Part shown: one piece after another, positions 3,751 to 55,116 of the stretch
How the letters are laid out: every line of letters starts with the position of its first letter
Numbering within the stretch: position 1 is the first letter of the stretch
Source of the DNA: an uncultured Candidatus Marinamargulisbacteria bacterium
Lineage (GTDB): Bacteria; Margulisbacteria; Marinamargulisbacteria; CAZFTP01
Direction: 5' to 3'
NCBI GenBank assembly: GCA_964521915.1
Contig: CAZFTP010000001.1
Location: 67,611 to 131,610, forward strand
Length of the DNA stretch: 64,000 nucleotides
The notes under the pieces: generated by a model
The model's input: only the letters and a program-made list of their open reading frames with translations
What the model was told of the DNA's origin: nothing
Database searches by the model: none
Made by a program: the position numbers and the translations under genes

Positions 3751-3887
3751 TGTTGCTCCTTTTTATGTATACCCGTGGGGCGAAGCCCCACGGGTATACG
3801 AGAGAAATTGTTTTGCCCTGCCGGGCGGGCTTTAAGGCTTCGCCTTAAAAATCCTTTTTTTCTAAGGGGCTGCGCCTCTTAAACCCC
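3751..3887. repeat. GC-rich mosaic intergenic repeat cluster (modules A and B) between queF and the amidotransferase gene
   Basis: Perfect 33-nt hairpin at 3767-3799 (gtatacccgtggggc-gaa-gccccacgggtatac) plus ttctaaggggctgcgcctcttaaacccc unit; related copies at at least 8 other loci. Confidence 0.85.
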
Positions 3888-4457: not shown

Positions 4458-4493
4458 TAGTATTTCCTTGTATCTCCATTGGGCTACGCCCAA

Positions 4494-4719
4494 TGGAGAT
4501 ACGAAAAAGATATTTTTCTAAGGGACTCCGTCCCTTAAACCCTGTGGGGCTTCGCCCCGAGAACTAACAAGGTTTTTCTAAGGGGGCAAGCCCCTTCAAC
4601 CCCCAAAAATCATGTTAATCATTTAATCATGCGAATCCTGGTTCAGACAGTTCTCCGTCCCTTAAACCCTAGGTTTTATTTATGTATACCCGGGTGGCTC
4701 CGCCACCCGGGTATACGAA
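4494..4719. repeat. GC-rich mosaic repeat cluster (modules B, C, A) inserted between the component I and II synthase genes
   Basis: Units gggactccgtccc, ggggcaagcccc and gggcttcgcccc; ATCAT array at 4606-4650; perfect hairpin at 4684-4716 (gtatacccgggtggc-tcc-gccacccgggtatac). Confidence 0.85.
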
Positions 4720-8928: not shown

Positions 8929-9130
8929 ACTTAATCATTATAACAGAGTTTTAAGGGGTTTTTAAGTGGCTTTAGCCCCTATTTATATATACCCATGAGG
9001 CTTCGCCTTTTGAGTTTTTCATGTATACCAGAGTGGCTTCGCCACCCGGGATTCTTAAAGGGGGCAAGCCCCCTTAAACTCCATGAGTTTACCCTAGTGC
9101 CTTTTGCCTTGAGTTTCCAGTGTCTTTTAC
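8929..9130. repeat. GC-rich mosaic repeat cluster (modules A-degenerate, B, D)
   Basis: Units gggggcaagccccc and ctagtgccttttgcct; degenerate gtatacc...gccacccggg hairpin. Confidence 0.75.
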
Positions 9131-9226
9131 CTATTTTTACAAAAATAAAATAAGTTTTTTTATATTTACAAAAATAAAAAAACTAAGTATATTAGCTTTT
9201 AATAGTAAAAAATAAGAGGTGTGATA

Positions 9227-9774: not shown

Positions 9775-11175
9775 ATGGCCAAAAACACACTTTATAACAA
9801 AGTCTGGGATCTTCATAAAATTGCTACTTTACCAACAGGACAAGATCAGATTTTTATTGGTTTGCATTATATGCACGAAGTTACAAGCCCAGCCGCTTTT
9901 TCTTTTTTAAGAGAACGAAAAGAAAAAGTGTTATTACCTCACCGCAATTTTGCTACTTACGATCACGTAATCCCTACGGATGATCAATCCCGTCCATTTA
10001 AAGACCAAGAAGCAGAAATTATGGCAAGTACCATTGAAAAAAATACAAAAGAATTTGGCATTACTTTTTTTGGTTTAAATTCCGGTAAAGAAGGTGTTGT
10101 CCATATTATTGGACCGGAGCATGGAATCACTAAACCAGGTATGATTATTGCTTGTGGAGATAGTCACACCAGTACGCATGGCGCGTTTGGCTCTTTGGCA
10201 TTTGGCATCGGAACTACAGAAGTAAGCATGGTTTTAGAAACTCAAACCTTAGCTTTGAATCCGTTAAAAGTACGTAAAATTCAATTTAACGGTACTATGC
10301 AAAAAGGGGTTTCTGCTAAAGATTTAATTTTAAAAGTAATTCAAGTTTTAGGTGTAAATGGTGGTTTAGGTTATGCTTATGAATTTAGCGGTGATGTAAT
10401 CAGTAAAATGAACATGGATGAAAGAATGACTATCTGCAATATGAGTATTGAGGGTGGAGCAAGAATTGGGTATATTAACCCAGATCAAATTACTTTTGAT
10501 TATATTAAAGATCGTGAATATGCACCAAAAGGGGCTGATTTCGATAAAGCTGTAAAATTTTGGCATTCAATAGCAAGTGATAAAGACGCAGTTTATGATG
10601 ATGTAGTAGAATTTGATGTGTCAAAAATTGAACCAATGATAACTTGGGGTATTAACCCAGGTATGGTCATGGGAATTAGCGAAAAAATCCCGATGCTAAA
10701 AGATTTGTCAGAAGCAGAACAAAAACATATTAAGCATGCTTTAGATTATATGAAATTTAAAGAAGGGCAATCACTTTTAGGTTTACCAGTAGATGTAGTA
10801 TTTATTGGGTCTTGTACTAACGGCCGAATGACAGACTTTAGGATTGCTGCAGAAATCATGAAAGGTAAAAAAGTTGCTGATAATGTTAAATGTTTGGTTG
10901 TACCTGGTTCTGCTGCCATTAAAAAGCAAGCAGAAGCAGAAGGCTTAGACAAAATATTTATTGATGCAGGTGCTGAGTGGCGTTATGCGGGTTGTTCGAT
11001 GTGTTTGGCGATGAACCCAGATAAGTTAATCGGAGATCAAATTAGCGTTTCAACTAGTAATCGTAACTTTATTGGCAGGCAAGGTAGTTCTACAGGTAGA
11101 ACTATTTTGGCTAGCCCGGCAGTTGCTGCCATCACCGCTATTAACGGTAAAATTAAGGGACCTTCGGTCCCTTAG
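9775..11175 (+). CDS. leuC: 3-isopropylmalate dehydratase large subunit
   Basis: 466 aa aconitase-family protein; [13 protein letters not shown] and GSCTNGR motifs. The last codons and stop (KGPSVP*) are encoded by a module-B-like repeat unit gggaccttcggtccc. Confidence 0.9.
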
Positions 11176-11403
11176 ACCCTAAGGATGAATATAGTATTCT
11201 TAGGGGACTTCGTCCCCTAAAACCCCTTGGGGAATAATGGTTTTTAAGGGACTCCGTCCCTTAAACCCTGGCGGGGCAAGCCCCTGCACCCCATGGATTT
11301 TTAAGGCGTAGCCTTAATATACCCAAAAGGGGTTTAAGGGGGCTTGCCCCCTTAGAAAACAATATTTTTCTCGTACTCTTTTTTGCGAAGCAAAAAAGAG
11401 TAC
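11155..11403. repeat. GC-rich mosaic repeat cluster inserted between leuC and leuD, ending in an AT-rich perfect hairpin
   Basis: Units gggaccttcggtccc, ggggacttcgtcccc, gggactccgtccc, ggggcaagcccc, gggggcttgccccc; hairpin gtactcttttttgc-gaa-gcaaaaaagagtac at 11373-11403. Confidence 0.8.
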
Positions 11404-13720: not shown

Positions 13721-13773
13721 TGTTGTTCTCCTTTTTTCTTTTTTGAAAAGAAACAAAATTTTTTATTTTATAT

Positions 13774-13915: not shown

Positions 13916-14053
13916 TTTGAACTCTTTTTTTACTCCCTCTCCTTAATAAGGAGAGGGGTGAGGTTATATTCCCCCTCGTTTTTTGCTTAAAAATCTAAAA
14001 ATTAACCAAAATATACCTGCCAGCAAAAAGAGAGGGGGTCAGGGGGTGAGTTA

Positions 14054-21027: not shown

Positions 21028-21126
21028 AATTTATGTCTATCTATAAGGGTCTCCGTCCCTTAAACCCTGATTTTTTTTCTCCTGTCTCCTGACTCCGGTC
21101 TTCTGTCTCCCGAGCCCCTCTAGTAC
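21028..21126. repeat. GC-rich repeat cluster (module B unit, CT-rich tctcctg repeats, module D)
   Basis: agggtctccgtcccttaaaccct; ctctagtacct overlaps the thiC stop codon. Confidence 0.7.
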
Positions 21127-22596: not shown

Positions 22597-22710
22597 TTTT
22601 ATTCCTCGTTCAATTCATTATACCTAGATCAATAGTTTTGGAACAGAGGAATTTTTTTATGTGCTTAAATTTTTTTGCTTTGCAAAAAAATTTAAGCACT
22701 AATCGATCTA

Positions 22711-23619: not shown

Positions 23620-23662
23620 ATGAGTCTGTCGCAAAATGAGAAATAGCCATTTTGTAGCAGGT
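23620..23662. repeat. MITE-like inverted-repeat element, copy 1 (gagtctgtcgcaaaatg...ccattttgtagcagg)
   Basis: Shares the terminal-repeat core with copies at 24688, 35941, 36040, 44897 and 55060. Confidence 0.7.
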
Positions 23663-23673
23663 TTATTTTTAAC

Positions 23674-23706
23674 GTACCCCTGGGGGACAGCCCCCCCCAG
23701 GGGTAC
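23674..23706. repeat. module-A-type GC hairpin (gtacccctggggg-acagcc-cccccaggggtac)
   Basis: Palindrome read directly; same architecture as the 33-nt hairpins elsewhere. Confidence 0.75.
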
Positions 23707-23921
23707 AAAAAGAATTAATTTTATTTGACTTAAAGTAAAAGAAAAGCTTATTATATTATCAGATTAATTATTATGAATAATAAAAATTATTTATTAATTT
23801 TATTAATTATTTTTTTTATTCTTTTAGTGTTATTTATTTATAAACAATTCACTAATTGGCATAATGGTGAATTTAGTTTAAATTTAAGCAAAAAAATAAT
23901 TTATCAAGTAACTCAAAAAAC

Positions 23922-24687: not shown

Positions 24688-24757
24688 TAGTCTGTCGCAA
24701 AATGAGACATTTTTTCAAAATAGTTTTGAGAAATAGCCATTTTGTAACAGACTCATC
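24688..24757. repeat. MITE-like inverted-repeat element, copy 2 (full length, about 70 bp)
   Basis: agtctgtcgcaaaatgagacattttttcaaaatagttttgagaaatagccattttgtaacagactc. Confidence 0.75.
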
Positions 24758-25854: not shown

Positions 25855-26120
25855 GATTGTTTATAATGTATACCCAGGGTGCGGAGCACCCTGGGTATAC
25901 GAGAAAAGGTAGTTTTCTAAGGGGCTTCGCCCCTTATACCCCATGGGGCTTTCGCCCCGAGAAACAAGGGAAATTATTTTCGAAGGGCTTTTTTTCATGA
26001 TTCTATCTTAACCCTTAATCTTACTCCTTAACCTTATTAGCAGACCCCCTTAAACCCCCTATAAAATCATGCTAATCATTTAATCATACGAATCATGGTT
26101 CAAGACATTCCCTATTGCCT
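25855..26120. repeat. GC-rich mosaic repeat cluster (modules A, B, B', C); the most complete composite locus
   Basis: Perfect hairpin at 25868-25900 (gtatacccagggtgc-gga-gcaccctgggtatac); ggggcttcgcccc and ggggctttcgcccc units; ATCAT array atcatgctaatcatttaatcatacgaatcatggttcaagacattcc. Confidence 0.85.
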
Positions 26121-30379: not shown

Positions 30380-30707
30380 TGTATTTATTTTTCCCTAATA
30401 ATCCTATTTTTTATTTTAAAAAAGAAACAAAATTTTATATTTATGTATCCCCAGGGTGCTTCGCACCCTGGGGATACATAAAAAACTCATGAGATGAGGG
30501 TAAAAATTCACCCTCTTTAACCTCGTAGAGCTATCATATCTGAACTCCGATTTATAGAATTATAAGATTTTCTTGATTAAAGGGTATATCTTAGGCTTAC
30601 TTATTTCTTTAATCATGCTAATCATTTAATCATGTAAATCATGGTTCAAGACATTTCCCTGAGCCCCACTAGTGCCTAGTGCCTTTTGCCTAGTACCTGT
30701 TCCCCAT
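30380..30707. repeat. mosaic repeat cluster (module E aaaagaaacaaaatttt, module A hairpin 30445-30477, ATCAT array, module D ctagtgcctagtgccttttgcctagtacct)
   Basis: Perfect hairpin gtatccccagggtgc-ttc-gcaccctggggatac; module D abuts the stop codon of the leuA/cimA-family gene. Confidence 0.85.
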
Positions 30708-35982: not shown

Positions 35983-36039
35983 TTAATTTTTGATTTGGAG
36001 TTTATGCTTATAAATAATTAATTTTAACGCACTAGTTTG

Positions 36040-36068
36040 GGAAAATAGCCATTTTGCTACAGACTCAA
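36040..36068. repeat. MITE-like half copy (aaatagccattttgctacagactc) upstream of ssb
   Basis: Right-arm terminal repeat only. Confidence 0.6.
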
Positions 36069-36464: not shown

Positions 36465-36469
36465 TGGCT

Positions 36470-36504
36470 GTTATCTCCATGGTGCATAGCACCATGGAGA
36501 TAAC
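36470..36504. terminator. perfect 16-bp GC hairpin between the convergent ssb and OMP genes
   Basis: gttatctccatggtgc-ata-gcaccatggagataac. Confidence 0.6.
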
Positions 36505-36510
36505 AACTAA

Positions 36511-38057: not shown

Positions 38058-38065
38058 GATATTTA

Positions 38066-38098
38066 ATTATATGTTGAGGCTACGCCTCAACATATAAT
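38066..38098. terminator. perfect 15-bp hairpin between rpsJ and tRNA-Lys
   Basis: attatatgttgaggc-tac-gcctcaacatataat. Confidence 0.55.
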
Positions 38099-38430
38099 TA
38101 AGAGTTTAACTTGATTTCTATATCTACGCCTTGCGGTAAATCTAATTGCATTAAAGCATCCATAGCAGAAGCTGGTGGATCTATGATATCAATTAATCTT
38201 TTATAAATTCTGATTTCATAATGCTCCCCCCCTCTTTTGTGCACATGAGGAGATTTAAGGATACACCATACTTTTTTTTCAGTTGGTAATGGAATTGGCC
38301 CAACTACTTTAGCACCGGATTTTTCGGCAGTTTTTACTATTTTCTCAGAAGATTGGTCTACTAAGATATGTTCAAATGCTTTTAATCTGATTCTGATTTT
38401 TTGTTCTTTTTTCTTTGTTGCTGTTGTCAA
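38098..38430 (-). CDS. rpsJ: 30S ribosomal protein S10
   Basis: [12 protein letters not shown]...GPIPLPT...LIDI motifs. Confidence 0.95.
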
Positions 38431-40971: not shown

Positions 40972-41791
40972 ATATTTTTTGTATTCTTTCTATAGAAATA
41001 GTTTTACCATTTTCCGTATCAATTTCTAAAATAATGCCATTTAAAAACTTATCTCCATAAGTTGGCGGTTCATATTTCACTGGCATTTGGGTTATAAATT
41101 TTTCAATAATTGGAGCCACTTCCATACCAATTACACTATCTCTAGCACCTACCATACCAATATCTGTAATATAACCAGTACCTTGCGGTAATATTCTTTC
41201 ATCAGCTGTAATAACATGAGTATGCGTACCAAAAACCGTACTTACTTTACCATCTAAAAACCAACCTAAAGCTTGTTTTTCTGACGTGGTTTCCGCATGA
41301 AAATCAACAATAACAAGATTAGTTTCAGCTTTTATTTCCGGTAAAATCCGTGATATAGTTTGAAACGGACAATCTGATAACCCCATAAAAACTCTACCAA
41401 CTAAATTAACCACTGCTATTTTATATTCATTTAACCTAAAAATTCGATAACCAACACCTGGGTTACTAAATAAATAATTTAAGGGTCGTACCATTTTTTT
41501 ATATTCATTAAAATCATTGATGCTTTCTTTCTTATTATAAATATGATTTCCGCTAGTATAAGCTTGGATATTATAATTATTAAAATCCTGATAAATCTTG
41601 GTGGTAATACCATGCCCGCCAGCTACATTTTCTATATTTACAATAGTAAAATGAATATCGTTTTCTTTTTGAATTTTAGCAAGATGTTCCTTAATAACCT
41701 GACGACCAGGTTTACCAACTACATCACCTAAACATAAGATTTTTATTTTTTTCAAAATGGTTTCCATTTCATATCCATGTAGCGAAGCCAC
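40964..41791 (-). CDS. ymdB: YmdB-like metallophosphoesterase (TIGR00282 family)
   Basis: KILCLGDVVGKPGR N-terminus; located downstream of rny as in Bacillus. Confidence 0.8.
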   Translation of the reverse strand: MASLHGYEMETILKKIKILCLGDVVGKPGRQVIKEHLAKIQKENDIHFTIVNIENVAGGHGITTKIYQDFNNYNIQAYTSGNHIYNKKESINDFNEYKKMVRPLNYLFSNPGVGYRIFRLNEYKIAVVNLVGRVFMGLSDCPFQTISRILPEIKAETNLVIVDFHAETTSEKQALGWFLDGKVSTVFGTHTHVITADERILPQGTGYITDIGMVGARDSVIGMEVAPIIEKFITQMPVKYEPPTYGDKFLNGIILEIDTENGKTISIERIQKIFE

Positions 41792-41998
41792 ATGGATATA
41801 AGAATTAATTTTCTAATGGGCTTAGCCCCTTAAACCCTTTGGGGCTAACGCCCCAACTCCAAGGGGAGATATCTTTTCTTAAGGGGCTTCGCCCCTTAAA
41901 CCCCGAGGAAGATATTTTCTCTTTTCCCAACGTTAGCACTTTAGCACGTTGAACGATTCTTGAGCCCCCCTAGTGCCTAATGCCTTCTGCCTAGTGCC
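41792..41998. repeat. mosaic repeat cluster (modules B x3, D) between ymdB and rny
   Basis: Units gggcttagccc, ggggctaacgcccc, ggggcttcgcccc; ctagtgcctaatgccttctgcctagtgcctta abuts the rny stop codon. Confidence 0.8.
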
Positions 41999-44562: not shown

Positions 44563-44896
44563 AATTTTCCTCCTTATTAATTATTTATGTATATTAAAGC
44601 TTCGCCTTAATATACATATAAAATACATAAAAAAAATTTTATTTATATCAATGAAAAATCTAAACAGAAGATACAGGATTACTTTGAATTAGTAATAACC
44701 AAACTAAATTTTCCAACAAAATTTATAATAAATTATTTTTTGTTAATTAACAAAAAAGATTTTTTTAATAATTTCAATTATTTACAAATATTTAAGTAAT
44801 CTAACTTTAATTTTATAGATATTAAATAGCTTATTTTATATCTAACTATTTAGTATTTTTCATAATCTAACCTTACTACTAGTATTATAACAAATT

Positions 44897-44936
44897 ATGA
44901 GTCTGTTGCAAAATGGCTATTTCGCGACAGACTCAT
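44897..44936. repeat. MITE-like compact copy with perfect 10-bp termini (atgagtctgt...acagactcat)
   Basis: atgagtctgttgcaaaatggctatttcgcgacagactcat. Confidence 0.7.
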
Positions 44937-47001: not shown

Positions 47002-47186
47002 TTTTTTTCCTTTTTCTTTTTAGAAAAGAAACAAAAAATTTTATTTTTAGGAGATTTTTCTTTTTGGAAAAAAGAAAAACCCTCTAAGACCCAAAAAGAA
47101 AAACTTTATTGCGGCTCAACTCGTTTTTTTCCTAAGCTAAACTTTGTGCCTTATTTTCTAAAATCATAGTCCATCAAATAATCATT
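47002..47186. repeat. degenerate repeat region (module E palindromes and an ATCAT-like array that runs into the murE 3' end)
   Basis: ttagaaaagaaacaaaaaattttat; ttttctttttggaaaaaagaaaa; aaatcatagtccatcaaataatcattttaatcacagttcaagac. Confidence 0.6.
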
Positions 47187-48404
47187 TTAATCACAGTTCA
47201 AGACCTCTCTCACTACCTCCCCGTCGTCAAAATGAATTGTTTTATCAGCAAAGATTTGATAATTTTCATGTCCTTTACCTAACAGCATTACAATATCATT
47301 TTTCTTTGCCATTTTAATTATCTTTATAATAGCTTCTTTTCTATCTAAAATAACCTGATAATTGCTAAAATCTTTTGGTAACCCTTGTAAAATATCTTGC
47401 ACTATTTGGTTTTGATCTTCTGTTCTGGGATTATCATTAGTAATAATCACAAAATCGCTTAACTGAACAGCAACTTCTGCCATTAGAGGTCTTTTGGTTC
47501 TATCTCTATCACCGCCACAACCAAATAAAGTTAAAACTCTACCACCATTATTTTTTACTATTTTTCCAGCTGTTTCTAAAACTTTTTTCATCCCATCAGG
47601 GGTATGGGCATAATCTACGACTACCAAAAAATCTCGATTAGTTATAACCTGCTCAAATCTTCCTTTAGGCGCTTTAGCTTTTGATAACCCTATTTCAATT
47701 TGCTCTTTTGTTAAACCTAGTTTTTGTAAAATTAAATAACTAAGTTCTAAATTAGCCAGATTAAAATCTCCTAATAATTGATGTTTAAAATCTATCTGGA
47801 CTTTTTGATAATCTTCGGGATAAATTTTTATGCTATCTCCTTCATTCATAAATTTCATTTTTGTTTTTTTATAATTAGCGAAAGTTTTATGAAAATCCAA
47901 ATGATCTTGTGTAATATTAGTTAATGCTTTAATAGCAAAATTAATCCCGTAAATTCTATCTTGCGCAATTCCATGGGAAGATACCTCCATCACAAAATAT
48001 TTTCCGCCTTTATTAAAATGTTTTTGCATTAAAGTTAAGATATCCCAAGATTCCGGGGTAGTAAGATTAGCAGTGATTGTTCCTAAAACAAAAGAGGATC
48101 CCGGTTCTAAATTATTTAATACCTGATTTACTAGATGAGTCACGGTTGTTTTACCATTTGTTCCTGTAACTCCAATTACCGCAAGTTTTTGAGATGGATC
48201 TTGAAAAACTTTTTGCCCTAATTCTCCTAATTCTTTTCTGTTTAATTTCAAATAATTTTGTGCGCCGCGTTTAAAAGCCTCTTCAATATATTTTTCCCCG
48301 TTAGGAAGTACGAGATAAGTATCACCTTTATTAATTTTACGAGAATCTATCTGATACATAAATATTTGAAAAACTAGTGAAAAATATGATATTATCCTAA
48401 ACAT
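47187..48404 (-). CDS. murE: UDP-MurNAc-L-Ala-D-Glu--2,6-diaminopimelate ligase
   Basis: VIGVTGTNGKTT, DYAHTPDG and DNPR motifs; the last codons and stop lie inside an ATCAT-array-like repeat. Confidence 0.8.
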   Translation of the reverse strand: MFRIISYFSLVFQIFMYQIDSRKINKGDTYLVLPNGEKYIEEAFKRGAQNYLKLNRKELGELGQKVFQDPSQKLAVIGVTGTNGKTTVTHLVNQVLNNLEPGSSFVLGTITANLTTPESWDILTLMQKHFNKGGKYFVMEVSSHGIAQDRIYGINFAIKALTNITQDHLDFHKTFANYKKTKMKFMNEGDSIKIYPEDYQKVQIDFKHQLLGDFNLANLELSYLILQKLGLTKEQIEIGLSKAKAPKGRFEQVITNRDFLVVVDYAHTPDGMKKVLETAGKIVKNNGGRVLTLFGCGGDRDRTKRPLMAEVAVQLSDFVIITNDNPRTEDQNQIVQDILQGLPKDFSNYQVILDRKEAIIKIIKMAKKNDIVMLLGKGHENYQIFADKTIHFDDGEVVREVLNCD

Positions 48405-50811: not shown

Positions 50812-52518
50812 TTAGGAAACTCTTTTTATAATAAGTAAAGAAATATCATCTCGCATTTCATGAATAGCTATTTTTTGTATTTTTTCTTTAATTGTTGCTA
50901 TTATTTTTTCTGCCGGCAATTCCGGATCTTGAATAAAATCCGCTAATAACAAATGATCTGAAATTATATCCCCATTTTTATCTTTTTGATCAAATAAACC
51001 ATCTGTATATAGTAAAAGAAAATCGCCAATATTAAGAAAAACTTCTTTTTCTTCTACATCAATATTATCAAAAACACCTAAAATAACCCCAGTTTGTTTT
51101 GGTAAAAAATCCATTTTCCTTTCTTGACTGTTATAATAGATAGGGGCTTCATGACCTGCTCTAACAAATGAAAATAAATGTTTTTTAGTATCTAATAAAC
51201 CATAAATTGCAGTTAAATACATTAAACTTTCATGGTTAGAATTTGAATTAAAAATATTGAGAACTTTATTAAATTCTTTAATTACATTTTGTGGCAAAAC
51301 TTTATTTAAAATAGAAAGCCATAATAAAGTTTTAGACATCATCATATATAAAGCGGCAGAAATACCTTTACCGGAAACATCTCCGATAACAACACCTAAA
51401 TTATCTTGAATTTTAATAAAATCATAGAAATCTCCACCTATTTTTTTAGCTGGTAAATTAAAGGCCGCTATTTGATAGCCTAAAATATGCGGAATATTTT
51501 TAGGTAAAAAATCTTGCTGAATTTTATTGCCAATATCATAGTCTCTATTCATTAATTCTAATTGCGCATTTTTTATCTTAATATTTAAAGAAAAAATAAT
51601 TAAGAGAATTAAACTACTACATATAATAATAAGTATTCCTAAAAAAGTAATTTTCAAGAAAGTGGGAAAAATTAAATTGTTAATAATCTCTTTAGGTGTA
51701 GATACTAAAATAATCCACTTTAGGTTAAAAGTTTTTATAGTATCGTAAGAAGCAATGTATTCAATATTTTGTTTTTTATATTTAACACTACCTTTTTTAT
51801 TCTTTTGTATTTCACTATAACGAATATTAGGAATTAATTCAGAAAAATCCTTTTTAAAAGTAATCTCTTTATTAGTAAAAATAATTTTACCTTTATTATC
51901 TATAACATAAAATGATTGAAGAGAATTGAACCCTAATATTGAGGTTAACCTGTCAAAAATATATTTTAAACTAATATCAACTGCTAATACACCATTAAAA
52001 ACATTATTATTAGTTGTAAGCGGGACACCAAGTATAATTGAAGGAATTTGATATTTTAAATCTGTATATTGTTCACCACCGGCAATTACACAATCTGTAA
52101 TATAAGGCTTAAGATTCTTACAACTTTGAAAATATTCTCTGTAAGCATAATTTTTATTTAATGATTCTTTTTGATAATTTGGATAAATATATTTGAGAAA
52201 GCCTAATGTATCTTCGATATAAATTCCAGTAATCTTATTTTTCTGAAGATTATAAAGTGGTAAAATTTTTTGCTGAAATTCAGAATCATTCTCAGGAATT
52301 TTCTTGAAGCTCTTAGATAAAAACAATAATTGAAATTCTAAATCATCAAAAAAATCTTGTAGATTAAAACTTAATTCTTGCAATAATTGCTGTTCTTGAT
52401 TAAAAAGCTCATCTTCAATATTAATTTTAGTAGTATGATAAGCAGTAAAACTAAAATAAGAAAAAAAAGCTAGTAATAAAGCAATGCAAAAAGTAGAAAA
52501 AAGAATATATTTATTCAT
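50812..52518 (-). CDS. membrane sensor with C-terminal SpoIIE/PP2C-type phosphatase domain (RsbU-like)
   Basis: N-terminal TM helix, extracytoplasmic sensor-like region, second TM helix, PPM domain (GDVSGKGISAALYM...YTDGL...MRDDISLLII). Confidence 0.75.
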   Translation of the reverse strand: MNKYILFSTFCIALLLAFFSYFSFTAYHTTKINIEDELFNQEQQLLQELSFNLQDFFDDLEFQLLFLSKSFKKIPENDSEFQQKILPLYNLQKNKITGIYIEDTLGFLKYIYPNYQKESLNKNYAYREYFQSCKNLKPYITDCVIAGGEQYTDLKYQIPSIILGVPLTTNNNVFNGVLAVDISLKYIFDRLTSILGFNSLQSFYVIDNKGKIIFTNKEITFKKDFSELIPNIRYSEIQKNKKGSVKYKKQNIEYIASYDTIKTFNLKWIILVSTPKEIINNLIFPTFLKITFLGILIIICSSLILLIIFSLNIKIKNAQLELMNRDYDIGNKIQQDFLPKNIPHILGYQIAAFNLPAKKIGGDFYDFIKIQDNLGVVIGDVSGKGISAALYMMMSKTLLWLSILNKVLPQNVIKEFNKVLNIFNSNSNHESLMYLTAIYGLLDTKKHLFSFVRAGHEAPIYYNSQERKMDFLPKQTGVILGVFDNIDVEEKEVFLNIGDFLLLYTDGLFDQKDKNGDIISDHLLLADFIQDPELPAEKIIATIKEKIQKIAIHEMRDDISLLIIKRVS

Positions 52519-52612
52519 AATTTAATATATAAATTATATTAAACTTTTTTTAATAAAGATACTAGATTTTTTTTCGATCCTTTGATCCCTTGAACTTACT
52601 GTACCCTGTGGT

Positions 52613-52885
52613 CTACTTTGTAGCTTTTAAACTACTATTTAAAGCTTTCATTAAACGAGCTTTTTGTCTTGCGGCTGTTTTTTTCTTTAATACCCCTTTA
52701 GCAGCGGTTTTATCGATAACTTGTAAAGCTTTTCTTACAATTTCTTCTTTATTTTCAACTTTTGCTTCTATTGCTTTTACTGCTTTTTTAACAAACGTTT
52801 TCAATCTATTTTTATAATAAAGATTCTTTTCTCTATTTCTTTCTGCTATTAGAATACCTTTTTTAGAACTTTTTAAATTTGCCAT
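52613..52885 (-). CDS. rpsT: 30S ribosomal protein S20
   Basis: MANLKSSKKGILIAERNREKNL...; 90 aa. Confidence 0.9.
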   Translation of the reverse strand: MANLKSSKKGILIAERNREKNLYYKNRLKTFVKKAVKAIEAKVENKEEIVRKALQVIDKTAAKGVLKKKTAARQKARLMKALNSSLKATK

Positions 52886-52983
52886 TTTTTATAAACCTCA
52901 AAAATAATAAATTTGACAGTTAAACCTAAATTTAGCTATCATAAGAAAAACATTAACAAATAGTATCATGAAATGGTAAAAAA

Positions 52984-54003
52984 ATGTCAATACTAGATTG
53001 GTTCAATAATAATCAAAAAGAAAAAATTACTAGCCAAAAATTAGATCTACCTACGGATCTTTGGGTAAAATGCTATAACTGTAATGAGATATTATATTTA
53101 AAAGAATTGATGTCAAACTATAAAGTTTGCACCAAATGTAATTATCATTTTCGTTTAAATATTTCAGAGCGTATTTCTTTTACCTTTGATGAAAATTCTT
53201 TTGAAGAAACTAACAAAGATCTAAAACCAACTGATTTTCTCGAATTTTCTGATACCGTCAGTTATCAAAACAGAATAAAAAACGCTCAGATGAAAACCAA
53301 ACAAAATGATGCTGTTATTACTGGTATCGGCAAAATTAATGGAGTCCCCGTTAATGCTGGTATTATGAATTTTGAATTTATGGGCGGTAGTATGGGTTCT
53401 GTGGTTGGCGAAAAATTAACCAGATTATTTGAATCTGCTATAGAAAACAAATTACCTGTAGTTGTAATAACCTCTTCCGGTGGTGCCAGAATGCAAGAAG
53501 GTATTATTTCTCTAATGCAAATGGCAAAAACAAGTGCGGCTCTAGCAAAATTAGATACTGAAAAAATACCTTATATTGTAATTTTAACTGACCCCACTAC
53601 AGGTGGTACCAGTGCTAGTTTTGCCATGTTAGGAGATATTATTTTAGCAGAACCGGACGCGCTTATTTCCTTTGCCGGACCCAGAGTTATTGAACAAACT
53701 ATCAGACAAAAACTACCAAAAGGGTTTCAAAAATCAGAATTTTTGGTTAGTCACGGTTTTGTTGATAGTGTTGTAGAAAGAAAAAATTTAAAAAATATAC
53801 TTTCAAAATTGATAATGATTTTGAGTACAAAAAAAAATTCTGAACCACAGATTAAAGAAACAGATACAAACCCACAAAAAGTAAAGGATGCCAGTAGTTC
53901 GTCCGTACTTGGACTCAAAGAAAAAAATGGAATTATTAAAAGCAAAACCAGAGTTAAAAGGGACAAAGTACCCCTAGAAAAAAAGGGGAATAAAAACAAA
54001 TGA
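52984..54003 (+). CDS. accD: acetyl-CoA carboxylase carboxyltransferase beta subunit
   Basis: N-terminal C4 zinc finger (CYNCN...CTKCNYH) and carboxyltransferase domain. Confidence 0.9.
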   Translation: MSILDWFNNNQKEKITSQKLDLPTDLWVKCYNCNEILYLKELMSNYKVCTKCNYHFRLNISERISFTFDENSFEETNKDLKPTDFLEFSDTVSYQNRIKNAQMKTKQNDAVITGIGKINGVPVNAGIMNFEFMGGSMGSVVGEKLTRLFESAIENKLPVVVITSSGGARMQEGIISLMQMAKTSAALAKLDTEKIPYIVILTDPTTGGTSASFAMLGDIILAEPDALISFAGPRVIEQTIRQKLPKGFQKSEFLVSHGFVDSVVERKNLKNILSKLIMILSTKKNSEPQIKETDTNPQKVKDASSSSVLGLKEKNGIIKSKTRVKRDKVPLEKKGNKNK

Positions 54004-55059: not shown

Positions 55060-55116
55060 GAAGTCTGTCGCGAAATGAGAAATTTTTTCAAAATAGCCAT
55101 TTTGCAACAGATTCAT
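55060..55116. repeat. MITE-like copy upstream of fliK
   Basis: agtctgtcgcgaaatgagaaattttttcaaaatagccattttgcaacagattc. Confidence 0.7.

What the first reader, a model, noticed from the sequence alone, without database searches (positions are those of the whole stretch)
25855..26120. Mosaic family of GC-rich intergenic repeat modules at nine or more loci, including 33-nt perfect hairpins with covarying stems
Four reusable modules recur. (A) 33-nt perfect palindromes gtataccc-NNNgg(g/t)gc-loop3-gc(a/c)ccNNN-gggtatac at 3767-3799, 4684-4716, 25868-25900, 30445-30477 and 23674-23706, plus a degenerate copy at about 9012. The inner stem differs between copies (cgtgggg, cgggtgg, cagggtg, ccagggtg) but always stays perfectly complementary, and the 3-nt loop varies (gaa, tcc, gga, ttc). 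This covariation means the hairpin or dyad itself is maintained. (B) ttctaaGGGGCttcGCCCCttaaacccc units whose small stems also covary (gggac-tcc-gtccc, ggggc-aa-gcccc, gggct-ta-gccc). (C) A four-fold ATCAT array (atcatgctaatcatttaatcatgcgaatcatggttcaagacattcc) at 4606-4650, 26057-26110, 30609-30660 and, degenerate, 47161-47215, always 3' of a minus-strand gene. (D) ctagtgcct-agtgccttttgcct-agtacct units at 9095-9130, 30664-30706, 41961-41998 and 21100-21126. Loci: 3751-3887, 4494-4719, 8929-9130, 11155-11403, 21028-21126, 23665-23710, 25855-26120, 30380-30707, 41792-41998, 47002-47215. The elements are 55-65% GC in a roughly 30% GC genome. This resembles REP/BIME, Correia or RPE-type element families, but the modular combination does not match any I recognise.
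Basis: seen in the sequence. Interest (0 to 1): 0.7.

Follow-up and report, generated by a model that had tools for sequence, protein, structure and literature searches.

The report
Mosaic clusters of small hairpin repeats
The spacers between genes of this AT-rich, uncultured (Margulisbacteria-like) bacterium are packed with several unrelated kinds of tiny GC-rich hairpin repeats and a miniature transposon, an arrangement like the REP/BIME and MITE repeats of well-studied bacteria, with the twist that two of the pieces also occur almost letter for letter in distant phyla.

Summary
The repeats are real and far above chance, and the 33-nt hairpins keep Watson-Crick pairing through double changes: 8 of 15 pairs, 0/500 shuffles.

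They are not one family. They are clusters of at least four independent elements:
- **A:** perfect palindromes, REP/REPIN-like.
- **B:** a sharply bounded 25-nt tail-plus-hairpin unit. It also occurs in 47 genome stretches from Spirochaetota, Clostridia, Chlamydiae, Desulfovibrio, Dehalococcoidales, Nitrospirae, Bacteroidetes, Proteobacteria.
- **C:** one arm of an 86-270-nt inverted-repeat miniature transposon. It also occurs in 45 metagenome contigs, one of them Fibromonadales.
- **D:** 7-nt tandem repeats.

Nearly every hairpin apex is GCGNAGC (18 found vs 5 expected), the DNA "mini-hairpin" motif. Wobble pairs are almost absent. This points to DNA-level maintenance.

Syntenic gene junctions in relatives are empty, so these are insertions. 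No transposase, Rfam family or published match was found, and the rest of the genome could not be reached.

Verdict: new members of a known kind (REP/BIME plus MITE mosaics), of moderate interest.

The parts
25868..25900 (.). A hairpin: perfect 15-bp palindrome with apex GC-GGA-GC
   Evidence: DNA fold is -16.6 kcal/mol, z = -7.8.
25918..25941 (+). B unit TAAGGGGCTTCGCCCCTTATACCC
25945..25961 (+). Small hairpin GGGGC-TTTC-GCCCC. The minus strand reads GCGAAAGC.
26065..26106 (+). C: right arm of the inverted-repeat miniature element, with AATCAT x4 and terminal GGTTCAAGAC. It lies 15 nt from the cysS stop codon.
3767..3799 (.). A hairpin with apex GCGAAGC, followed on the minus strand by ATAAAAAGGAGCAACA-ATG of queF
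3831..3886 (+). Small hairpin TTTAAGGCTTCGCCTTAAA plus a B unit (3863-3886), directly after the trpG stop codon
4470..4502 (.). A hairpin with outer stem GTATCTCC and apex GCTACGC, 12 nt before the true trpG start
4519..4604 (+). B unit (4519-4542), small hairpin (4546-4561) and B variant with a CAAG loop (4579-4604)
4608..4648 (+). C arm
4684..4716 (.). A hairpin, 3 nt after the trpE stop codon
8987..9132 (+). Decayed A copies (8987-9014 and 9023-9055), a B variant (9056-9082) and D heptamer repeats (9093-9132), in a spacer between divergent genes
   Evidence: The independent Logan contig L093 is identical.
11154..11359 (+). Three B units on the + strand (11154-11174, 11200-11224, 11243-11268), small hairpins, and one inverted B (11329-11359) between leuC and leuD. 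The first B encodes the last codons and the stop of leuC.
11373..11403 (.). A-type hairpin (14-bp stem, apex GCGAAGC), followed by ATAAAAAGGTGTAAAT-ATG of leuD
21044..21126 (+). B unit (21044-21067) and D-type heptamer repeats (21079-21126) between thiC and mgtE
30440..30482 (.). A hairpin, perfect 20-bp stem
30539..30652 (+). Complete C-type miniature element: a degenerate left arm (30539-30582) and the right arm (30611-30652)
   Evidence: (I1)
30661..30698 (+). D: GAGCCCC followed by (CTAGTGC)n, ending 10 nt from the cimA stop codon
41769..41801 (.). A hairpin with two mismatches, abutting the start of the ymdB-like gene
41814..41903 (+). B unit (41814-41837), small hairpin (41841-41854) and B unit (41880-41903)
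41962..41998 (+). D heptamer repeats abutting the rny stop codon
47162..47204 (+). Degenerate C arm. The murE stop codon and its last five codons lie inside it.
36469..36505 (.). A-related perfect 17-bp hairpin between convergent genes
22661..22699 (.). Unique-sequence hairpin of the same build: 18-bp perfect stem, GC-nnn-GC apex, ATAAA on its 3' side
38063..38101 (.). Unique-sequence hairpin of the same build, with GCGTAGC on the minus strand, between rpsJ and tRNA-Lys

Best explanation
The region is a BIME-like mosaic: a pile-up of several independent, non-coding, non-autonomous repeat elements. They have been inserted into intergenic spacers, and sometimes into the last codons of genes, of a roughly 30% GC Margulisbacteria-like chromosome.

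**The four elements**
- **A** is a family of REP/REPIN-like perfect palindromes.
- **B** is a sharply bounded 25-nt unit. On its other strand it reads GGGGTTT tail, then hairpin AAGGGGC-GRA-GCCCCTT.
- **C** is an arm, or a whole copy, of an 86-270-nt miniature transposon. Its terminal inverted repeats are GTCTGAACCATGATT with 3-4 subterminal TGATT repeats.
- **D** is a heptamer tandem repeat.

**Shown**
- Each module is over-represented.
- The modules are placed between genes.
- The same gene junctions in relatives are empty.
- B and C occur in other phyla.
- The A stems change by compensated Watson-Crick double changes.
- The hairpin apexes carry the DNA mini-hairpin heptamer GCGNAGC.

**Inferred**
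- A and B are copied or moved as single-stranded DNA hairpins by an enzyme acting in trans, of the HUH/Y1 type (RAYT or IS200/IS605-like).
- Arm symmetry is kept at the DNA level, either by recognition of the folded strand or by templated correction within the palindrome.
- C is moved by an unidentified transposase that binds the repeated TGATT sites.
- Once in place, the very stable hairpins are probably tolerated, and partly co-opted, as punctuation of polycistronic mRNAs. They could protect the 3' end of the upstream message and sit as a 5' stem-loop just before the ribosome-binding site of queF, trpG, leuD and the ymdB-like gene.
For: **The modules are far above chance**
- A: 3 against 0 expected.
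- B: 8 against 0.
- C: 3 against 0.
- Perfect hairpins with a stem of at least 9 bp: 29, against 0-13 in shuffles.

**They sit between genes**
- All lie in spacers whose GC is 0.33-0.51, against 0.30 in coding sequence.

**They are insertions**
- In relative L097, cimA and lysA overlap by 26 nt; here they are 328 nt apart.
- leuC-leuD is 68 nt in L097 against 244 nt here.
- Relatives L094, L097 and L098 lack all four modules.
- A B unit supplies KGPSVP-stop of leuC, beyond the end of the family profile.
- In L005, L022, L029 and L044 the TAA of B immediately follows, and reads as the stop codon of, the upstream coding sequence (ORF calls confirm this for L005 and L022).

**The modules are independent**
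- The B core occurs in 47 stretches of GTDB genomes from many phyla, against about 0.1 expected. In Spirochaetota it is embedded in a roughly 115-nt inverted-repeat element.
- There, 45 of 48 copies are intergenic, orientation relative to neighbouring genes is random, and there is no shared neighbour gene.
- The C core occurs in 45 metagenome contigs of 30-60% GC. Both arms are present in about 16 copies. One of these contigs is Fibromonadales.

**The signature is DNA-level**
- A stems show 21 double changes against 1 wobble.
- GCGNAGC occurs 18 times against 5.05 +/- 2.24 expected. From the coordinates, 17 of the 18 sit at a hairpin apex.
- Only GNA among all 64 triloops forms the DNA mini-hairpin, and the RNA version is far less stable (PMC13037366).
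- Loops occur in both orientations relative to transcription.

**Precedent**
- Compensatory changes in REPIN hairpins, and movement by RAYTs, are described in PMC3116915 and PMC3337134.
Against: - No transposase of any kind was found. The window ORFs from 1-38 kb and around 40-48 kb were scanned, as were the flanks of B and C copies.
- No target-site duplication is visible for C.
- No filled-versus-empty polymorphism between strains was observed.
- A-type hairpins have a fixed polarity relative to transcription: TTCTC, hairpin, ATAAA in 9 of 9.
- Two hairpins of the same build are unique sequences, not repeats (22661 and 38063). This fits a host function at least as well as mobility.
- The orientation of B relative to local GC skew in other genomes is not significant (25:14, P = 0.11).
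- A genome-wide copy number for this organism could not be obtained.
Confidence: 0.6

Rival explanations
1. The hairpins are primarily host RNA elements. In this reading they are U-tract-less terminators, 3'-end protectors or RNase (for example RNase Y) processing guides that set the relative expression of neighbouring genes, and their stems covary because the RNA fold is under selection.
For: - They lie at gene 3' ends and inside operons: trpE|trpG|queF, leuC|leuD, rny|ymdB-like.
- Canonical hairpin-plus-T-run terminators are not enriched: 19 against 11 +/- 3.7, and 3 against 8.5 +/- 3.3. Another kind of 3' structure may therefore be needed.
- A-type hairpins have the same flanks in the direction of transcription in 9 of 9 cases. 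Four of them sit between 1 and 16 nt before a start codon (16 nt queF and leuD, 12 nt trpG, 1 nt the ymdB-like gene), with a Shine-Dalgarno sequence in between for queF, trpG and leuD.
- Unique-sequence hairpins of the same architecture exist.
- The whole 25855-26120 transcript strand folds at z = -3.85.
- The relative L094 has its own palindromes after genes.
Against: - G-U pairs are almost absent: 1 against 21 double changes.
- Loops are GNA on either strand regardless of transcription.
- The GCGNAGC cap is a DNA-specific stabiliser (PMC13037366).
- B units occur in both orientations relative to genes, both here and in 47 other genome stretches.
- Syntenic junctions in relatives need no such element.
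- No Rfam family matches.
Confidence: 0.25
2. All modules are pieces of one composite mobile element of about 250 nt, in the order A-B-hairpin-C-D. It was copied as a unit and then decayed differently at each locus.
For: - The + strand order A, B, small hairpin, C, D is the same at every locus.
- Four clusters are 230-270 nt long.
- The sub-unit small hairpin, B, TTAGAAAA-N6-9-TTCTC, A recurs at 25868, 4470, 41769 and 11373.
Against: - B and C occur alone, with sharp boundaries, in unrelated genomes that lack the other modules.
- Clusters differ in which modules they hold and how many: 21028-21126 has only B and D, and 11154-11403 has four B units and no C or D.
- C has its own second arm at 30539-30582.
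Confidence: 0.1
3. The pattern is a chance effect of composition, or an assembly artefact of a metagenome-assembled genome.
For: The source is an uncultured organism, and an independent short-read contig ends inside one cluster.
Against: - Shuffles give zero matches for each module.
- The Logan contig L093 from run SRR4343444 reproduces 8.4-11.27 kb base for base, including two clusters.
- B and C are found in isolates and in long-read assemblies of other organisms.
Confidence: 0.03

Closest known systems
REP sequences and BIMEs (bacterial interspersed mosaic elements) of enterobacteria
   Same: - Both are short extragenic palindromes.
- Both cluster with other short motifs in a fixed order.
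- Both lie between co-transcribed genes and after stop codons.
- Both are GC-richer than their surroundings.
   Different: - There is no sequence similarity, and E. coli genomes hold no match to B.
- The stems here are perfect and differ from copy to copy.
- The apex is the GCGNAGC mini-hairpin.
- One 'motif' of the mosaic (C) is a transposon arm.
REPIN-RAYT systems (Pseudomonas, E. coli, Nostoc; PMC3116915, PMC3337134)
   Same: - The hairpin-forming symmetric units show frequent compensatory changes in the stem.
- They are non-autonomous and extragenic.
- B has the 'conserved tail plus hairpin' asymmetry of a REP.
   Different: - REPINs are doublets of two REPs about 70-100 nt apart; A is a single 33-nt palindrome.
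- No RAYT was seen.
- REPIN-RAYT systems are described as mostly vertically inherited (bioRxiv 10.1101/2022.05.22.493013), whereas B is identical across phyla.
Bacterial MITEs, for example the Correia/NEMIS elements of Neisseria (from my own knowledge)
   Same: C has terminal inverted repeats, a size of about 86-270 nt, many copies per contig, intergenic sites close to gene starts and ends, and solo arms.
   Different: - No target-site duplication was recognised.
- The arms carry 3-4 short direct subterminal repeats (TGATT).
- The parent insertion sequence is unknown.
- It is found in at least two phyla.
Rickettsia palindromic elements (RPE; from my own knowledge)
   Same: Both are GC-richer palindromic repeats in an AT-rich genome that can extend or replace coding ends.
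   Different: RPEs are 100-150 nt and sit in frame inside genes. Here only the last 5-7 codons of leuC and murE are affected, and the sequences are unrelated.

Membership tests
REP / REPIN-RAYT | Short extragenic palindrome present in many copies | tested here: met
   There are about 10 A-type and about 12 B-type copies in 64 kb, all intergenic. The genome-wide number is not known.
REP / REPIN-RAYT | Cognate single-copy RAYT (Y1 transposase) gene in the same genome, usually flanked by REPs | not testable with these tools
   Only 64 kb of the genome is available. No transposase domain was found in the ORFs scanned. The source contig could not be fetched.
REP / REPIN-RAYT | Conserved 5' tetranucleotide (GTAG type) at the foot of the hairpin | tested here: inconclusive
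   A hairpins start GTAT or GTAC, inside the stem. B has a conserved GGGGTTT tail on the GNA strand. Neither is GTAG.
REP / REPIN-RAYT | Replicative unit is an inverted doublet of two REPs with a spacer | tested here: not met
   A is a single palindrome with a 3-nt loop. B units are mostly in direct orientation, 11 of 12 on the + strand.
REP / REPIN-RAYT | Compensatory changes keep the hairpin | tested here: met
   8 of 15 pairs show double changes, with 0 of 500 shuffles reaching this.
BIME | Mosaic of palindromic units and other short motifs in a recurring order | tested here: met
   The order A, B, small hairpin, C, D holds on the + strand at all clusters.
MITE (DDE-transposon derived), for module C | Terminal inverted repeats and small size | tested here: met
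   About 16 distinct copies with both arms GTCTGAACCATGATT...AATCATGGTTCAGAC, 86-270 nt long. The window copy is at 30539-30652.
MITE (DDE-transposon derived), for module C | Target-site duplication | tested here: inconclusive
   No consistent direct repeat flanks the copies. The flanks are often ..TT / AA.., which may simply extend the inverted repeat.
MITE (DDE-transposon derived), for module C | Autonomous element with the same ends | tested here: not met
   Pairs of ends 2.6-4.6 kb apart enclose housekeeping genes, not a transposase. There is no plasmid match.
Intrinsic (rho-independent) terminator | GC-rich hairpin followed by a T/U run | tested here: not met
   None of the GTAT-type A-family hairpins is called. 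The 3' flank is ATAAA or GAGAA. The only long hairpin the scan flags is 38062-38102, on the strand antisense to rpsJ.
IS200/IS605-derived palindrome-associated elements | Subterminal hairpins, no inverted repeats, insertion 3' of a fixed 4-5-nt target, strand bias to the lagging-strand template | tested here: inconclusive
   B has sharp boundaries and 11 of 12 copies on one strand, which GC skew marks as the lagging strand. In other genomes the bias is 25:14, P = 0.11. No TnpA or TnpB was seen.
Any Rfam RNA family | Match to a curated covariance model | tested here: not met
   Only tRNA reaches gathering score. The best sub-threshold hits have E of at least 0.3. B-bearing loci also show nothing.
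DNA mini-hairpin motif (GCGNAGC / GCGNNAGC) | Heptamer GC-GNA-GC at the hairpin tip | tested here: met
   18 found against 5.05 +/- 2.24 expected, and 17 of them sit at hairpin apexes. The motif's properties are described in PMC13037366.

The most novel reading that the evidence does not exclude
Modules B and the A-type and small hairpins may belong to an unrecognised, horizontally spreading class of minimal single-stranded-DNA elements. Such elements would be 25-35 nt long, capped by the GCGNAGC DNA mini-hairpin, and shared letter for letter between uncultured anaerobes of many phyla. They would be copied at the replication fork by a still unidentified HUH-type enzyme, or captured as a stabilising module by unrelated miniature transposons, as in the spirochaete element.
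Probability: 0.2. Interest if true: 0.7.

Novelty: new member of a known kind. Interest (0 to 1): 0.42.

Why it matters
- **Repeat biology in a new phylum.** REP/BIME-type repeat biology, known mainly from Proteobacteria, extends to a candidate phylum next to the Cyanobacteria.
- **A caution for covariation.** A 'covarying hairpin' in a genome scan need not be an RNA. Perfect Watson-Crick symmetry, strand-flipping GNA loops and the DNA mini-hairpin cap are a usable signature for DNA-level palindromes.
- **A concrete handle on horizontal spread.** The identical 25-nt B unit and the C transposon arm in distant phyla can be used to ask how tiny non-autonomous elements cross phylum boundaries, and which enzyme moves them.
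- **A practical point.** These clusters break short-read assemblies: contig L093 ends inside one.

Tried and rejected
- **Rfam.** Scans at gathering and at E <= 10 on the window and on B-bearing loci gave nothing but tRNA and an unrelated riboswitch. A weak preQ1-II hit upstream of queF (20.6 bits against 47 needed) is just the A hairpin.
- **Full-text sequence searches.** Searches for the B, C and F sequences returned no relevant paper.
- **BLAST of B and C.** Plasmids gave only marginal 25-28-nt hits, with no annotated feature under the B matches and only an unrelated DUF1311 gene under one C match. Phages and E. coli genomes gave nothing. Viral contigs hold neither B nor C.
- **Fetching the rest of the genome.** This failed. 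The exact-protein look-up of CysS found nothing. The genome-collection scan returned no hit from this organism. Only a 2.9-kb Logan contig was found.
- **Shared neighbour genes.** An all-against-all BLASTP search for a transposase next to B found only ABC ATPases and histidine kinases. Long-range pairs of C ends enclose housekeeping genes.
- **Replication-strand test for B in other genomes.** Not significant.
- **Terminator reading.** Rejected for lack of T-runs.
- **A formal pair count for B.** Abandoned because copies with different stem lengths do not align cleanly.
- **CRISPR.** Rejected on sight: there is no regular repeat-spacer period in the window.

Full report
**Context**

The window is a compact bacterial chromosome segment of about 30% GC carrying ordinary housekeeping genes: trpE, trpG, queF, leuC, leuD, thiC, mgtE, cysS, panB, lysA, cimA, rny, murE and murF. 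Its CysS is at most 66% identical to anything else on record. The closest named relatives are Candidatus Margulisiibacteriota MAGs, and an identical protein sits on an NCBI contig of 262,883 bp.

That contig could not be fetched. My one scan of the genome collection returned no hit from this organism. The rest of the genome therefore remained out of reach. A 2.9-kb Logan contig from run SRR4343444 reproduces 8.4-11.27 kb exactly and ends inside the leuC-leuD repeat cluster.

Yes.
- The strict A pattern occurs 3 times against 0.00 expected.
- The B core occurs 8 times within 3 mismatches against 0 expected.
- The C core occurs 3 times against 0 expected.
- A census of perfect hairpins finds 29 with stems of at least 9 bp, against 0-13 in shuffles. 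Ten of them have 13-20-bp stems, and nine of those have a 3-nt loop and a GC-nnn-GC apex. All ten are intergenic.
- Spacers that carry the elements are 0.33-0.51 GC with 40-nt peaks of 0.57-0.70, against 0.30 in coding sequence.

- 23674-23706 is a different hairpin.
- The decayed copies are at 8987-9014 and 9023-9055.
- Further members are at 4470-4502, 41769-41801, 36469-36505 and 11373-11403.

**Covariation**

Eight A copies align without gaps. Against the 15-bp helix, 94% of cells pair, 8 of 15 pairs change on both sides (21 cells), and 0 of 500 shuffles reach this. Sliding the partner by 1-3 columns gives 26-48% pairing.

Copies 25868 and 30445 differ in the stem by exactly one compensated pair. 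Copies 4684 and 9023 share an inner stem. So the claim of covarying stems holds.

Two details change its meaning.
- Only one wobble pair is seen, against 21 double changes.
- The loop is not free. In 7 of 9 long hairpins it is GNA or its complement (P = 4e-6). The heptamer GCGNAGC occurs 18 times against 5.05 +/- 2.24 expected, and by coordinates 17 of these sit at the tip of a hairpin.

GCGNAGC and GCGNNAGC are the 'mini-hairpin DNA' motifs. Of all 64 triloops in GCNNNGC, only GNA forms the structure (Tm 70-76 C), and the RNA counterpart is far less stable (PMC13037366; see also PMC3201870). The small hairpins beside B read GCGAAAGC and GCGTTAGC on the minus strand, and both appear in that paper's table. 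The GNA form lies on either strand regardless of the direction of transcription. Together this points to a DNA hairpin or dyad rather than an RNA fold.

**The modules are not one family**

*Module B.* The B core TAAGGGNCTYCGNCCCTTAWACCC, about 21.5 specified bases with about 0.1 chance hits expected in 596 Gb, was found in 47 genome stretches. These come from:
- many Spirochaetota and Leptospirales MAGs;
- Clostridia, Chlamydiae, Desulfovibrio, Dehalococcoidales and Nitrospirae;
- a 72% GC Acetobacteraceae and a Bacteroidetes MAG;
- the isolates Acinetobacter gyllenbergii and Anaerofustis stercorihominis.

The conserved block has sharp edges, TAAGGGGCTYCGCCCCTTAAACCCC. The free stem position covaries between G-C and A-T. 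In spirochaetes the block sits inside a roughly 115-nt element with its own inverted ends, TAGACTTGTTGCGAAAC...GCAACAAGTCTA. In Clostridia and Chlamydiae it is followed by a second, different hairpin. Across these loci 45 of 48 copies are intergenic, orientation relative to flanking genes is random (10/9/8/8), and no neighbouring gene recurs.

*Module C.* The C core was found in 45 metagenome contigs of 30-60% GC. Aligning their contexts shows that C is one arm of an 86-270-nt element with terminal inverted repeats GTCTGAACCATGATT...AATCATGGTTCAGAC. Each arm holds 3-4 TGATT repeats. The window has one full copy at 30539-30652 with a decayed left arm. One C-bearing contig is from Fibromonadales, since its IMPDH is 94% identical to a Fibromonadales MAG. 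C therefore also crosses phyla.

*Modules A and D.* Neither was found in any fetched locus.

**They are insertions**

Gene order cimA-lysA-dacA-panB-cysS is conserved in relatives.
- In L097, cimA and lysA overlap by 26 nt. Here they are separated by 328 nt of repeats.
- leuC-leuD is 68 nt in L097 against 244 nt here.
- Relatives L094, L097 and L098 lack A-D. L094 instead has its own family of 16-22-bp perfect palindromes after genes.
- The B unit at 11154-11174 encodes the last residues (KGPSVP) and the stop codon of LeuC, beyond the end of the family profile.
- The murE stop codon and its last five codons lie inside a decayed C arm.

**Arrangement**

On the + strand the order is always A, B, small hairpin, C, D. 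Read in the direction of transcription, a sub-unit recurs at four loci, three on the minus strand and one on the plus strand: small hairpin, B, TTAGAAAA-N6-9-TTCTC, A hairpin, ATAAA.

A-type hairpins, including two of unique sequence, have this polarity in 9 of 9 cases. Four of them sit between 1 and 16 nt before a start codon, with the Shine-Dalgarno sequence between hairpin and start for queF, trpG and leuD.

B units are on the + strand in 11 of 12 cases (P = 0.006). GC skew marks that strand as the lagging strand, so the GNA form would lie on the lagging-strand template. In other genomes the same test is not significant (25:14, P = 0.11).

**What it is not**

- No Rfam family matches.
- None of the GTAT-type A-family hairpins is a canonical terminator, since none has a T-run. 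Such terminators are not enriched in the window.
- No transposase was found in the ORFs scanned or near B or C copies elsewhere.
- No target-site duplication is evident for C.
- Plasmid, phage, E. coli and viral collections add nothing.

**Interpretation**

The best-supported reading (about 0.6) is a BIME-like pile-up of several independent, non-autonomous repeat families inserted into spacers:
- REP/REPIN-like palindromes (A);
- a REP-like tail-plus-hairpin unit (B);
- a miniature inverted-repeat transposon (C);
- heptamer repeats (D).

Compensatory change in such hairpins is already known for REPINs (PMC3116915). Movement of A and B as single-stranded DNA hairpins by a Y1/HUH enzyme is an inference from the DNA-specific cap, the Watson-Crick-only symmetry and the strand bias. 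It is not shown.

The main rival (about 0.25) is that the hairpins exist for an RNA role, such as 3'-end protection or processing between genes of an operon. The fixed polarity of A relative to transcription and the scarcity of ordinary terminators favour this. I think co-option is likely, but not the origin of the elements.

**Novelty**

These are new members of known kinds. Two aspects go beyond the textbook picture: the identity of a 25-nt unit and of a transposon arm across phyla, and the systematic GCGNAGC cap. They are carried as the 'novel case' at about 0.2 probability.

Noticed in passing
window 23622-23660, 24688-24754, 36012-36066, 44899-44934, 55061-55114: There is a fifth repeat family, made of inverted arms GAGTCTGTYGCAAAATG...CATTTTGCNACAGACTC. 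The arms resemble the inverted ends of the spirochaete element that carries module B (TAGACTTGTTGCGAAAC). They also share a TCGCAAAA core with the palindromes of relative L094.
   Followed up: partly
window 13935-13963; L019 1059-1096: The hairpin CCCTCTCCTTAATAAGGAGAGGG followed by GGGGTGAGG, in the hcp-rrf2 spacer, recurs almost identically next to a B unit in a Dehalococcoidales MAG. This is a third short GC-rich module shared across phyla.
   Followed up: partly
window 13733-13768, 30407-30442, 47011-47046: The AT-rich 36-nt repeat TTTTTCTTTTTTGAAAAGAAACAAAATTTTTTATTT lies directly upstream, on the minus strand, of the start codons of hcp, lysA and murF. It may be a shared leader or promoter element.
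   Followed up: no
window about 52500-53000: Gene orientation switches from minus to plus and cumulative GC skew turns from falling to rising. This would fit a nearby replication origin. The 'spacer' there holds a small rpsT-like ORF on the minus strand.
   Followed up: no
window 22597-22710: No TPP riboswitch is detected upstream of thiC. The spacer holds only an 18-bp perfect hairpin at 22661-22699.
   Followed up: no
L094 78-121, 1774-1821, 6422-6463, 11435-11470: The closest relative (CysS 66% identical, 32% GC) has its own repeated perfect palindromes, TTTATGTC(A/T)ATTTTTGCGAT-nnnn-ATCGCAAAAAT(A/T)GACATAAA, after genes. They share the TTTATGT...ACATAAA foot with window hairpin 30440-30482.
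   Followed up: partly
L090 6500-7060; L057 493-580, 5428-5513; L055 10093-10123: The C-type element also forms a tandem array with a 124-nt period (five units) in one contig. In two contigs it ends 1-4 nt before the ATG of MacB/FtsX-type permease genes.
   Followed up: partly
L093 (Logan SRR4343444), 2781-2876: An independent short-read contig of the same organism stops inside the leuC-leuD repeat cluster. The clusters therefore break short-read assemblies.
   Followed up: yes
window 44574-44630: This is an imperfect 27-nt-arm AT-rich hairpin whose tip is again GCGAAGC on the minus strand, although its sequence is unrelated to the A family.
   Followed up: no
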